This document shows, piece by piece, positions 6,493 through 6,576 of a DNA stretch of 64,000 nt (its first letter is position 1; every line of letters starts with the position of its first letter). The position numbers were made by a program, and so were the translations under genes. A model generated the notes under the pieces. It saw nothing but the letters and a program-made list of their open reading frames with translations. It made no database searches and was not told the origin of the DNA. Origin of the DNA: a virus (lineage: Duplodnaviria > Heunggongvirae > Uroviricota > Caudoviricetes); the IMG/VR virus record IMGVR_UViG_3300035034_002381, positions 1 to 64,000 of that record; one strand, written 5' to 3'.

Positions 6493-6522
6493 AGGAGAGG
6501 CATTTTTGCCTCTCCTTTTTTT
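6493..6522 (+). terminator. rho-independent terminator (AGGAGAGGC-ATTTT-TGCCTCTCCT followed by T-run)
   Basis: Perfect 9-bp hairpin then TTTTTTT. Confidence 0.75.
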
Positions 6523-6576
6523 ATGTTTAAAACTATATCAATCTTAGATATATAATACAAATAAATTAAATTAAAT
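6523..6576 (+). promoter_or_regulatory. promoter-like element ATGTTTAAAACTATATCAATCTTAGATATATAATAC preceding ATG at 6577; near-identical copy at 22864-22918
   Basis: Repeated 38-nt element with TATAAT-like box 21 nt upstream of start codon. Confidence 0.5.

What the first reader, a model, noticed from the sequence alone, without database searches (positions are those of the whole stretch)
6493..6576. Repeated terminator-promoter cassette (6493-6576 and 22857-22918; related copy 46718-46796)
A terminator hairpin plus T-run is followed by ATGTTTAAAACT(A/T)TAT(C/T)AATCTTAGATATATAA and a TATAAT box about 20 nt before an MK..F..EF-family start codon, in two near-identical copies. A looser version (TTTATGTTGTTTAAAAATTGATATATAATCTATAAAG) follows the 46718 terminator upstream of another family member. 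This suggests a mobile promoter module that helps spread the internal-protein cassette.
Basis: seen in the sequence. Interest (0 to 1): 0.55.

Follow-up and report, generated by a model that had tools for sequence, protein, structure and literature searches.

The report
Repeated terminator-promoter unit in huge phage
Two near-identical 39-base stretches are copies of this uncultured giant phage's own "stop transcription, then restart" signal, one of them pushed aside by an inserted mobile gene; the feature is real but resembles the promoter/stem-loop cassettes already known from T4-type phages.

Summary
The repeat is real: 6518-6555 and 22860-22898 match in 37 of 39 aligned columns. Copy 1 and the loose copy 3 follow strong terminator hairpins. 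Copy 2 keeps only the 3' arm and T-run. The repeat is not a private module. It belongs to two promoter-like motif classes of this T4-related, Lak-like phage fragment (32% GC).

- **Class A:** TAAAAC-N16/17-ATATAA has 10 exact sites, all on the + strand, against 0.45 expected. Its boxes are conserved and its spacer divergent in relatives with 71-75% capsid identity.
- **Class L:** GATATATA lies 12-45 nt upstream of the start codons of head, tail and tag-family genes. It also lies just after the capsid-gene terminator in 29 of 33 relatives, so it is probably a late promoter.
- **Copies 1 and 2** carry both classes. Copy 3 carries only class L.

Copy 2 is the native promoter after the capsid gene. 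It sits beside an 11-codon capsid pseudogene fragment and was displaced by an endonuclease-like gene that has its own diverged terminator-promoter copy. A 99%-identical strain lacks this 2.6-kb block.

Best reading: ordinary terminator-promoter punctuation that also marks rearrangement sites, analogous to PeSLs. I found no evidence of autonomous mobility. No transcription data exist.

The parts
6492..6517 (+). Copy 1 terminator hairpin (AAGGAGAGGCA-TTTT-TGCCTCTCCTT), running into the T-run
   Evidence: 11-bp stem, -19.7 kcal/mol, z -5.7, 0 of 200 shuffles as stable
6518..6555 (+). Copy 1 conserved block: T-run, ATGTT, TAAAAC box (6528-6533), 16-nt spacer, GATATATA (6547-6554) overlapping ATATAA (6550-6555)
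6577..7140 (+). 187-aa gene downstream of copy 1 with no detectable homologue; N-terminus MKNVKNFREFLNE
   Evidence: only itself found among 5.8 billion proteins
21034..21059 (+). Intact terminator hairpin after the major capsid gene (GAGAGGGGATC-GAAA-GATTCCCTCTT)
   Evidence: -17.6 kcal/mol, z -4.8
21070..21098 (+). Diverged fourth copy of the promoter block (TAAAAC-N17-ATATAA; class A only, GTATATATAAT), driving the endonuclease-like gene
   Evidence: 50-52% identity to copies 1 and 2 outside the boxes, against 26-48% for most other pairs
21117..22802 (+). 561-aa gene of PHROG 3339, annotated 'homing endonuclease'; inserted between the two cassette copies and absent from the 99%-identical strain L017
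22820..22852 (+). Pseudogene fragment of a capsid-gene 3' end (LVEAGHHPETM), out of any ORF
   Evidence: 30 of 31 nt identical to the capsid gene of relative L040; synonymous differences from the window's own capsid gene at about 20930-20965
22853..22864 (+). Residual 3' arm (TTCCCTC) and T-run of a half-deleted terminator
22860..22898 (+). Copy 2 conserved block: TAAAAC 22870-22875, 17-nt spacer, GATATATA 22890-22897, ATATAA 22893-22898
22919..22966 (+). 15-codon stub MKTFNEYEQINESGN*, a likely remnant of the gene that originally followed the capsid gene (compare L046 MKFSEYQNLRES...)
46717..46746 (+). Copy 3 terminator hairpin
   Evidence: -21.9 kcal/mol, z -5.7
46747..46775 (+). Copy 3 promoter-like block: T-run, ATGTTGTTTAAAAATT, GATATATA (46766-46773); no TAAAAC box at N16/17
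46797..47360 (+). 187-aa gene downstream of copy 3 (MKNLKSYENFENQLLE...); resembles the 6577 gene only in the first ~10 residues
17091..17098 (+). GATATATA box 29 nt upstream of the gp21-like prohead protease gene. It is representative of the other class L sites at 50448, 52026, 56093 and 62590, plus TATATATAA at 16759-16769 after the hairpin at 16713-16741
1137..1165 (+). Class A site. It is representative of the other exact TAAAAC-N17-ATATAA sites at 2659, 3721, 10984, 26520, 37756 and 43984

Best explanation
The unit is the phage's normal intergenic punctuation. An intrinsic terminator ends the upstream transcript, and a phage-type promoter immediately restarts transcription for the next gene.

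The promoter part of copies 1 and 2 superimposes two signals used throughout this genome.
- **Class A** is a two-box signal, TAAAAC(TTT)-N16/17-ATATAA(T), with the geometry of a sigma-70-family -35/-10 promoter. It is otherwise found before non-structural genes, so it is probably early or middle.
- **Class L** is a single-box signal, GATATATA(A). It is found before the head protease, tail/baseplate genes and the gene after the capsid gene across the whole phage clade. It is probably the late promoter, the counterpart of T4's TATAAATA.

Copy 2 is the original promoter after the capsid gene. An endonuclease-like gene entered there together with a diverged copy of 'capsid 3' end - terminator - promoter'. 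The insertion left a direct, diverged duplication around itself. A later deletion of about 130 nt removed most of the old capsid fragment and the 5' half of the old terminator.

Copy 1 is a paralogue of copy 2, made or homogenised by duplication or gene conversion. Copy 3 shares only the class L box and the T-run context.

The units are passive. They move only as homology or microhomology patches in recombination, as proposed for PeSLs.

Shown: the sequence anatomy, motif statistics, conservation in relatives, and the indels. Inferred: promoter activity, timing classes, the order of events, and any role in recombination.
For: - **Repeat and hairpins:**
- **Class A statistics:** 10 exact sites, all on the + strand, against 0.45 expected and 0 of 100 shuffles reaching 10. 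Nine of the 10 lie wholly in the 9.8% of the window that is non-coding (binomial p 8e-9).
- **Class A conservation:** at a homologous site in relatives L018 and L043 both boxes are kept while only 7 of 17 spacer positions match.
- **Class L in the window:** GATATATA has 11 of 12 hits on the + strand, and 8 of them lie 12-45 nt upstream of start codons.
- **Class L in relatives:** in 29 of 33 distinct relatives it lies about 100 nt after the capsid stop codon, after a hairpin and T-run, with the ATG 23-25 nt after the G (32 nt in one relative, L046). It also precedes the protease gene in L004, L014, L021, L043 and L017.
- **Downstream genes:** class A sites precede an SPFH-domain protein gene, tRNAs, and sugar and DNA-modification operons. 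Class L sites precede the S77 protease and a baseplate-like region.
- **Displacement of copy 2:** the capsid pseudogene fragment is fused to a half terminator. The endonuclease-like gene has a 35%-identical homologue at the same intergenic site, in the opposite orientation, in L038. The close relative L020 lacks it.
- **Strain-level indel:** L017 is 99% identical and lacks 21101-23676.
- **Common descent of copies 1 and 2:** 69% identity outside the boxes, against 26-52% for the other pairs.
- **Other:** no Rfam family matches the sites.
Against: - No transcription start data exist, and no host is known.
- No sigma factor or gp55-like gene lies in the window, so promoter class and timing are inferences.
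- The generic sigma-70 scan is uninformative here: 81 sites against 88 expected.
- The L017 deletion junction has only 3 nt of exact microhomology (ATA). Its right end lies inside a coding sequence, not in another cassette. It therefore does not demonstrate cassette-to-cassette homologous recombination.
- No relative covering the copy 1 or copy 3 loci was found, so their history is untested.
- GATATATA alone is only about two-fold over chance in the window: 12 hits against 6.2, with 1 of 100 shuffles reaching 12. Its support comes from position and conservation.
Confidence: 0.62

Rival explanations
1. Co-regulated promoters only. The near-identity of copies 1 and 2, including the spacer, reflects selection, for example a phage activator or repressor site spanning the spacer. 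The units play no part in genome rearrangement.
For: Both copies precede genes with the same N-terminal tag. A third site, 21070, shares part of the spacer (TTTATTCAAT / TATATYAAT). The L017 deletion junction has only 3-nt microhomology. Deletions that keep a promoter in front of the next gene could simply be the ones that survive selection.
Against: Other class A sites, and the homologous pair in L018 and L043, tolerate almost any spacer. The gene behind copy 2 is a 15-codon stub, so selection on that copy's spacer is doubtful. The endonuclease-like gene is bracketed by two diverged copies plus a capsid pseudogene fragment, which is a recombination scar.
Confidence: 0.22
2. An autonomous mobile promoter module. 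The cassette itself transposes and carries internal-protein genes to new sites.
For: There are two near-identical copies 16 kb apart. Both precede tag-family starts. The region after the capsid gene is variable between strains.
Against: There are no terminal repeats, target duplications or associated transposase. Similarity begins at the T-run and fades after the -10 box. The boxes belong to genome-wide promoter classes that serve unrelated genes. Most tag-family genes lack the cassette. The exact cassette is found nowhere else in the viral or genome collections. Copy 2's position is explained by insertion of another gene.
Confidence: 0.07
3. Not promoters. The conserved block acts at RNA level (processing site, translational enhancer, small upstream ORF) or as a DNA signal of another kind.
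For: The block begins with ATG and could encode MFKTISILDI* in copy 1. The motifs lie in what would be leaders if transcription read through.
Against: The 1-nt indel shifts the frame, so the two peptides differ (MFKTISILDI* against MFKTYINLRYINYI*; read). In L017 the equivalent ATG after the 16741 T-run is ATA. Blocks sit directly after strong terminators, where little read-through RNA is expected. The fixed 16/17-nt two-box spacing with free spacer sequence is a DNA-recognition signature. No Rfam family matches.
Confidence: 0.06

Closest known systems
PeSLs (promoter-early stem-loops) and PmSLs of T4-type phages (Arbiol et al. 2010, PMC2839356; Comeau et al. 2014, PMC4122927)
   Same: Both are small composite intergenic units made of a terminator stem-loop plus a two-box promoter with N17 spacing. 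They are repeated within one genome, sit next to genes without known homologues and other non-essential genes, and are associated with indels between closely related phages. PeSL consensus sequences already differ between phage pairs, for example TTTACW-N17-TAYWAT and TTGYVH-N17-TAWWAT, and a middle-promoter version exists.
   Different: The boxes here are TAAAAC / ATATAA, overlapped by a clade-specific GATATATA box. There is no polyG/polyC stem motif. Only 3-4 units share sequence beyond the boxes. The one strain-level deletion examined ends in a -10 box on one side only, with 3-nt microhomology. Mini-circles were not tested. The phage is a Lak-like huge phage, far from the cultured T4-likes.
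Stem-loop/promoter elements flanking the internal-protein (IP) loci of T-even phages (Repoila et al. 1994, as summarised in PMC2839356)
   Same: Here too, terminator-like stem-loops plus phage promoters precede small genes whose products share only a short conserved N-terminal tag. In T4 this tag is the capsid-targeting sequence MKTYQEFIAE. Here it is MKNLKTFEQF-type, followed by (L/I)xE, and a gp21-like S77 protease gene lies nearby.
   Different: No evidence shows that these proteins are packaged or cleaved. The T-even elements use T4 early promoters. Here most tag genes sit inside operons without the element.
T4 late promoter TATAAATA (gp55/gp33/gp45-dependent; textbook knowledge, Miller et al. 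2003, not re-read here)
   Same: It is a single A/T-rich -10-type box without a -35 element, placed directly upstream of structural genes and often abutting the preceding stop codon or terminator. Its position is conserved across a clade.
   Different: The sequence is GATATATA(A/G/C)AA, not TATAAATA. No gp55/gp33 homologue could be looked for outside the window. Late timing is an inference.
Free-standing homing endonuclease genes of T4-like phages (seg/mob genes; cited in PMC4122927)
   Same: A gene of a family annotated as homing endonuclease lies in an intergenic site next to a conserved essential gene. It is present or absent among close relatives and is found at the same site in a second lineage.
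   Different: The endonuclease assignment rests on a PHROG name and sub-threshold Pfam hits. No cleavage site or activity is known. The flanking diverged duplication with a capsid pseudogene fragment is not typical of simple homing.

Membership tests
PeSL (T4-type promoter/stem-loop cassette) | A stable stem-loop (terminator) directly adjacent to a promoter, in an intergenic position | tested here: met
   Copies at 6492-6555, 21034-21098 and 46717-46775 have hairpins with z from -4.8 to -5.7, followed by promoter-like boxes. Copy 2 (22853-22898) retains only half the hairpin.
PeSL (T4-type promoter/stem-loop cassette) | The promoter matches the host sigma-70-type early consensus (-35, N17, -10) and works as an early promoter | tested here: inconclusive
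   The geometry matches: two hexamers spaced N16/17, with 10 sites against 0.45 expected. The -35-position box is TAAAAC, not TTGACA or TTTACW. The host and its consensus are unknown, and there is no expression data.
PeSL (T4-type promoter/stem-loop cassette) | Many copies per genome, concentrated in hyperplastic regions next to genes without known homologues | tested here: inconclusive
   Only a 64-kb fragment is available. It holds 10 class A sites, of which 3 follow hairpins. Copy 1 precedes a gene with no homologue. Copies at 21034 and 22853 bracket a variable 2.6-kb block.
PeSL (T4-type promoter/stem-loop cassette) | Indels between closely related phages have their crossover points inside pairs of cassettes | tested here: inconclusive
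   The deletion in L017 (window 21101-23676) has its left end in the -10 box of the 21070 copy. Its right end is in a TATATAAT tract inside a coding sequence, and exact homology is 3 nt. The endonuclease-like gene is flanked by two diverged copies.
PeSL (T4-type promoter/stem-loop cassette) | Formation of cassette-bounded mini-circles | not testable with these tools
   This needs inverse PCR or split-read analysis of raw reads.
T4-type late promoter | A conserved -10-type octamer without a -35 element, upstream of late (structural) genes | tested here: met
   GATATATA precedes the protease gene, the gene after the capsid gene, and tail-region genes, in the window and in 29 of 33 relatives. The octamer differs from TATAAATA.
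T4-type late promoter | Dependence on a gp55-like sigma factor, gp33 and the sliding clamp; late timing | not testable with these tools
   The Pfam and PHROG scans of the window's larger ORFs found no such gene. The rest of the genome is not available.
T-even internal-protein locus | Genes encode proteins with a conserved N-terminal capsid-targeting sequence that ends at a prohead-protease site (L/I)xE, with otherwise unrelated bodies | tested here: inconclusive
   The shared tags and an (L/I/V)xE within residues 7-22 are seen in all 9 members. The bodies are unrelated (E = 27). An S77 protease gene is present. Packaging and cleavage are untested.
Transposable or otherwise autonomous mobile element | Defined ends (inverted or direct repeats), target-site duplication, and a mobility gene | tested here: not met
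   Similarity simply decays on both sides of the 39-nt block. No repeats bound it. No transposase or integrase was found among the neighbouring genes scanned.

The most novel reading that the evidence does not exclude
Copies 1 and 2 are dual-class promoters: an early/middle-type two-box signal fused to the clade's late box. Together with the short N-terminal tag ending in (L/I)xE, they would form a portable 'express and package' unit. Any ORF recombined behind the promoter and tag would be made late, loaded into the prohead, trimmed by the gp21-like protease and injected. This would be a plug-in effector system in a Lak-related huge-phage lineage, with terminator-promoter units, perhaps on circular intermediates, as the recombination handles.
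Probability: 0.15. Interest if true: 0.6.

Novelty: new member of a known kind. Interest (0 to 1): 0.38.

Why it matters
Huge phages of the Lak-related, T4-superfamily lineage are known only from metagenomes, and their transcription signals are undescribed. This window yields three candidate promoter classes: TAAAAC-N17-ATATAA, GATATATA and TTTTGaTTATATTTa. One of them is conserved across dozens of relatives at a fixed landmark after the capsid gene.

These motifs can be used to annotate operons and timing classes, and to guide metatranscriptome analysis. The capsid-gene 3' region also gives a clean natural example of how a mobile endonuclease-like gene and terminator-promoter duplication reshape a conserved structural module. 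That extends the PeSL idea beyond cultured T4-likes. The cassette itself is not a new kind of element.

Tried and rejected
- **Near-identical phage search:** no match to deposited phages, so no annotated reference exists.
- **Cassette pattern searches:** the exact pattern in IMG/VR gave no hit. A looser 21-base pattern in IMG/VR and GTDB genomes gave 3 hits in unrelated contigs. By my rough, uncomputed estimate chance alone could give hits at this level, so I discarded them.
- **Relatives of the copy 1 and copy 3 loci:** the 187-aa ORF has no homologue. Its only long contig is the source itself. The flanking genes 4529-6472 and 45533-46681 found no relatives in IMG/VR.
- **Generic sigma-70 scan:** not enriched over shuffles, so it cannot be used as evidence.
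- **Small upstream ORF in the block:** rejected because the 1-nt indel changes the frame.
- **Rfam:** only tRNAs were found.
- **Segmental duplication of the 6.5-kb and 46.8-kb loci:** rejected because the gene bodies are unrelated and only the N-terminal tags match.
- **Clean crossover in the shared TATATAAT for the L017 deletion:** rejected after base-by-base inspection. The junction is offset by 3 nt and exact microhomology is only ATA.
- **Homologue of the relatives' gene after the capsid gene (MLFEN...):** none found in the window.

Full report
**What the window is.** The window has 32% GC, and nearly all its genes are on the + strand. It carries 21 tRNA genes, a T4 gp21-type prohead protease (Peptidase_S77, 17120-19195) and a Gp23-family major capsid protein (19214-21007).
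- The capsid protein's best matches among deposited phages are an uncultured 462-kb phage and the ~540-kb Prevotella Lak phages, at 40-43% identity. Tenacibaculum phage PTm1 follows at 31%.
- No deposited phage is close at the DNA level.
- A 64.4-kb ENA metagenome contig (ERZ27315366) carries the same genes, offset by 5,246 nt.
- The sequence is therefore a fragment of an uncultured, T4-superfamily, probably huge phage.
- Start codons lack Shine-Dalgarno sequences. That fits a Bacteroidota host, which is my inference.

**The observation.** The two main copies are real. 6518-6555 and 22860-22898 agree in 37 of 39 aligned columns, which does not happen in shuffles.
- Copy 1 follows an 11-bp hairpin plus T-run (6492-6517; -19.7 kcal/mol, z -5.7).
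- Copy 3 follows a 12-bp hairpin (46717-46746; -21.9 kcal/mol).
- Copy 2 has no hairpin (z -0.41). Only TTCCCTC and the T-run remain.
- Copy 3 shares the T-run-ATGTT, TTTAAAA and TTGATATATAAT, but lacks about 13 nt between them.
- The ORF behind copy 2 is a 15-codon stub.

**A wider family: class A.** The block contains TAAAAC, then 16/17 nt, then ATATAA. This pattern occurs exactly 10 times, all on the + strand: 1137, 2659, 3721, 6528, 10984, 21070, 22870, 26520, 37756 and 43984.
- Shuffles give 0.45 on average, and none reaches 10.
- Nine sites lie wholly in the 9.8% of the window that is non-coding. The tenth starts on the stop codon of the preceding gene.
- The consensus extends to TAAAACTTTtTtCAAt.
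- The genes downstream are mostly non-structural: an SPFH-domain protein, a tRNA region, an endonuclease-like gene, a HAD / NTP-transferase / glycosyltransferase / methyltransferase operon, a glycosyltransferase / DNA-methylase / LicD operon, and a thymidylate-synthase-like region.
- In two relatives with 71-75% capsid identity (L018, L043), a homologous intergenic site keeps both boxes, while only 7 of 17 spacer positions agree. That is the footprint expected of a two-box promoter.
- With the -10 read as TATAA(T/A), the upstream box occupies the -35 position.

**A wider family: class L.** The block also contains GATATATA.
- In the window, 11 of 12 occurrences are on the + strand.
- Eight lie 12-45 nt upstream of start codons. 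They precede the protease gene (17091), the three cassette genes, and 50463, 52053, 56105 and 62635, a region with a baseplate-hub-like OB domain.
- In relatives the same octamer is far more frequent, at 9-10 per 21.7 kb. It sits upstream of head-module genes, including the protease gene.
- In 29 of 33 distinct relatives (capsid identity 46-83%), the order after the capsid stop codon is hairpin, T-run, about 20-40 nt, then GATATATA(G/C/A)AATAAAAG. The ATG follows 23-25 nt after the G, except 32 nt in L046.
- This conserved, -35-less box in front of structural genes is best read as the clade's late promoter, analogous to T4 TATAAATA. That is an inference from textbook T4 knowledge.
- Copies 1 and 2 carry both class A and class L signals. 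Copy 3 and the site after the 16713-16741 hairpin carry only the late-type box.
- A third motif, TTTTGaTTATATTTa (8052, 15079, 32591, 45493), marks yet another promoter-like class.

**History of copy 2.** Immediately upstream of copy 2, at 22820-22852, is an out-of-frame remnant encoding LVEAGHHPETM. This is the conserved C-terminal motif of the capsid protein.
- It differs from the window's own capsid gene at synonymous positions. It matches relative L040 in 30 of 31 nt.
- It is fused to the 3' arm of a terminator whose sequence matches the intact hairpin at 21034-21059.
- Between the two lies a 561-aa gene of PHROG 3339, annotated 'homing endonuclease' (E 7e-105). Pfam support is weak.
- That gene is driven by a diverged cassette copy at 21070-21098, which is 50-52% identical to copies 1 and 2 outside the boxes.
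- The arrangement is therefore: capsid gene, terminator, promoter, endonuclease-like gene, capsid pseudogene fragment, half terminator, promoter, gene stub.
- This direct, diverged duplication around an inserted gene is what a single crossover with a related DNA carrying 'capsid 3' end - terminator - promoter - gene' would produce. This is inference.
- The same gene family (35% identity) sits at the same terminator/late-promoter junction, in the opposite orientation, in relative L038. The close relative L020 lacks it.
- Closer relatives show that copy 2 is the native promoter after the capsid gene. L018 has TAAGATATATACTACATAATAAG, against copy 2's TTAGATATATAAACTACATATAATC. L046's gene after the capsid gene starts MKFSEYQNLRES, like the stub MKTFNEYEQINES.

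**Strain-level plasticity.** Contig L017 (Ga0307983_1000289) is 98-99% identical to window 15052-33775, with five indels.
- It lacks 21101-23676, which holds the endonuclease-like gene, copy 2, the stub and three small ORFs.
  - The left end of this deletion lies in the -10 box of the 21070 copy.
  - The right end lies in a TATATAAT tract inside the 3' end of ORF 23493-23702.
  - The last codons of that ORF survive in L017, so this is most simply a deletion in L017.
  - Exact microhomology at the junction is only ATA.
  - The result puts the class A promoter directly in front of gene 23712.
- It lacks 12738-15054, which includes an M43 peptidase gene. That junction lies in a ~23-nt imperfect repeat next to a class B motif.
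- It lacks two in-frame segments, 18371-18597 and 24261-24457.
- It carries an extra 125 nt at 16687 with its own GATATATAA box.

The neighbourhood of these units is therefore hyperplastic. The junctions do not prove cassette-to-cassette homologous recombination.

**Relation of copies 1, 2 and 3.** Outside the fixed boxes, copies 1 and 2 are 69% identical over 62 positions. The other class A pairs reach 26-52%.
- Spacers are otherwise free, which argues for common descent or gene conversion rather than convergence.
- The genes behind copies 1 and 3 are both 187 aa but unrelated, apart from the first ~10 residues (E = 27).
- The small genes that follow them (7225 and 47731) share only a 16-residue N-terminus.
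- The 6577 gene has no homologue in 5.8 billion proteins.
- No relatives covering these loci were found, so whether genes are swapped behind copies 1 and 3 remains untested.

**Comparison with known systems.** The closest known kind is the PeSL.
- PeSLs are composite stem-loop/promoter units of T4-type phages that lie in hyperplastic regions and at indel boundaries. Their consensus varies by lineage, and a middle-promoter version exists (PMC2839356, PMC4122927).
- The same authors describe analogous elements at the T-even internal-protein loci. This parallels the N-terminal tag family seen here.
- The present units share the architecture, the N17 geometry and the association with variable genes.
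- They differ in box sequence, in the overlap with a late-type box, and in the weakness of the evidence for recombination.
- They fail the tests for an autonomous mobile element: no ends, no target duplication and no mobility gene of their own.

**Verdict.** The feature is real. It is best explained as ordinary terminator-promoter punctuation that uses two lineage-specific promoter classes. One copy was displaced by an inserted mobile gene, and another arose by duplication or conversion. It is a new member of a known kind. Its value lies mainly in the promoter motifs it reveals for an uncultured huge-phage clade. Promoter function, timing and any recombination role remain inferences that need RNA 5'-end data and population-level read analysis.

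Noticed in passing
window 6577, 22919, 23236, 23493, 23712, 25806, 46797 (tag 1); 7225, 47731 (tag 2): Nine ORFs share only a short N-terminal tag: MKN(L/V/I)K.F.(E/Q)F in seven, and M(E/K)SFK..LE.K..DKL in two. Each has an (L/I/V)xE motif within residues 7-22, and the protein bodies are unrelated. With the gp21-like S77 protease at 17120, this resembles T4 capsid-targeting sequences cut by the prohead protease. The capsid protein itself has SLNE at residues 40-43.
   Followed up: partly
window 22820-22852: An 11-codon pseudogene fragment of a major-capsid-gene 3' end (LVEAGHHPETM) lies 1.8 kb downstream of the real capsid gene. It is closer in sequence to a relative's gene (L040, 30 of 31 nt) than to the window's own.
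   Followed up: yes
window 21117-22802; L038 about 1320-2970 (minus strand): A 561-aa protein of PHROG 3339 ('homing endonuclease'; weak Pfam REase_MTES_1575 and DUF7487 hits) is inserted right after the capsid gene. A 35%-identical homologue occupies the same terminator/late-promoter junction in the opposite orientation in another lineage. Most relatives lack it.
   Followed up: partly
window 12738-15054, 18371-18597, 24261-24457, about 16687; locus L017: The 99%-identical strain contig L017 lacks a 2.3-kb segment that includes an M43 peptidase gene. The junction lies in a ~23-nt imperfect repeat and leaves an 8-codon gene start. L017 also lacks two in-frame segments, one in the protease C-terminal region and one in ORF 23712, and it carries an extra 125 nt with its own GATATATAA box.
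   Followed up: partly
window 8052, 15079, 32591, 45493: A third promoter-like motif, TTTTGaTTATATTT(A/G), has four intergenic + strand copies 25-45 nt upstream of start codons. Its core TATATTT(A/G) resembles the Bacteroidota -7 element TAnnTTTG, which I recall from memory. It may mark host-polymerase (early) promoters.
   Followed up: partly
window 9795-9879, 9880-9964, 10564-10648: Three 85-nt repeats (79-80% identical) have tRNA-like T-arms (GGTTCGAnTCCC) and Leu-type anticodon-loop sequences. Neither ARAGORN nor Rfam calls them as tRNAs, although they lie inside the tRNA array.
   Followed up: no
window 3177-3900, 8871-9276, 51735-52052: These stretches are unusually long and ORF-free for such a compact genome. 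One of them, 3177-3900, contains a class A promoter-like site at 3721. Possible non-coding RNAs or missed or recoded genes were not examined.
   Followed up: no
window 46747-46764; relatives e.g. L008, L040: The sequence right after the copy 3 T-run, ATGTTGTTTAAAAAT, matches 14 of 15 bases of the start of the relatives' conserved gene after the capsid gene (ATGTTGTTTGAAAAT, MLFEN...). That gene has no homologue in the window. The match could be a scar of an old rearrangement or chance.
   Followed up: partly
window 23236-24743: ORFs 23236, 23493 and 23712 look like tandem duplicates. Their 5' ends share up to 82% nucleotide identity over 45 nt (repeat family D15). The upstream gene ends are also similar (..NDMLAKK* and ..NDMESKT*).
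   Followed up: no
whole window compared with ENA contig k141_21517: The gene coordinates imply that the window starts at contig position 5247 and runs about 4.9 kb past the end of the 64,373-nt ENA contig. The window must therefore come from a longer assembly of the same phage. L052 supplies 3.4 kb upstream of the window start.
   Followed up: no
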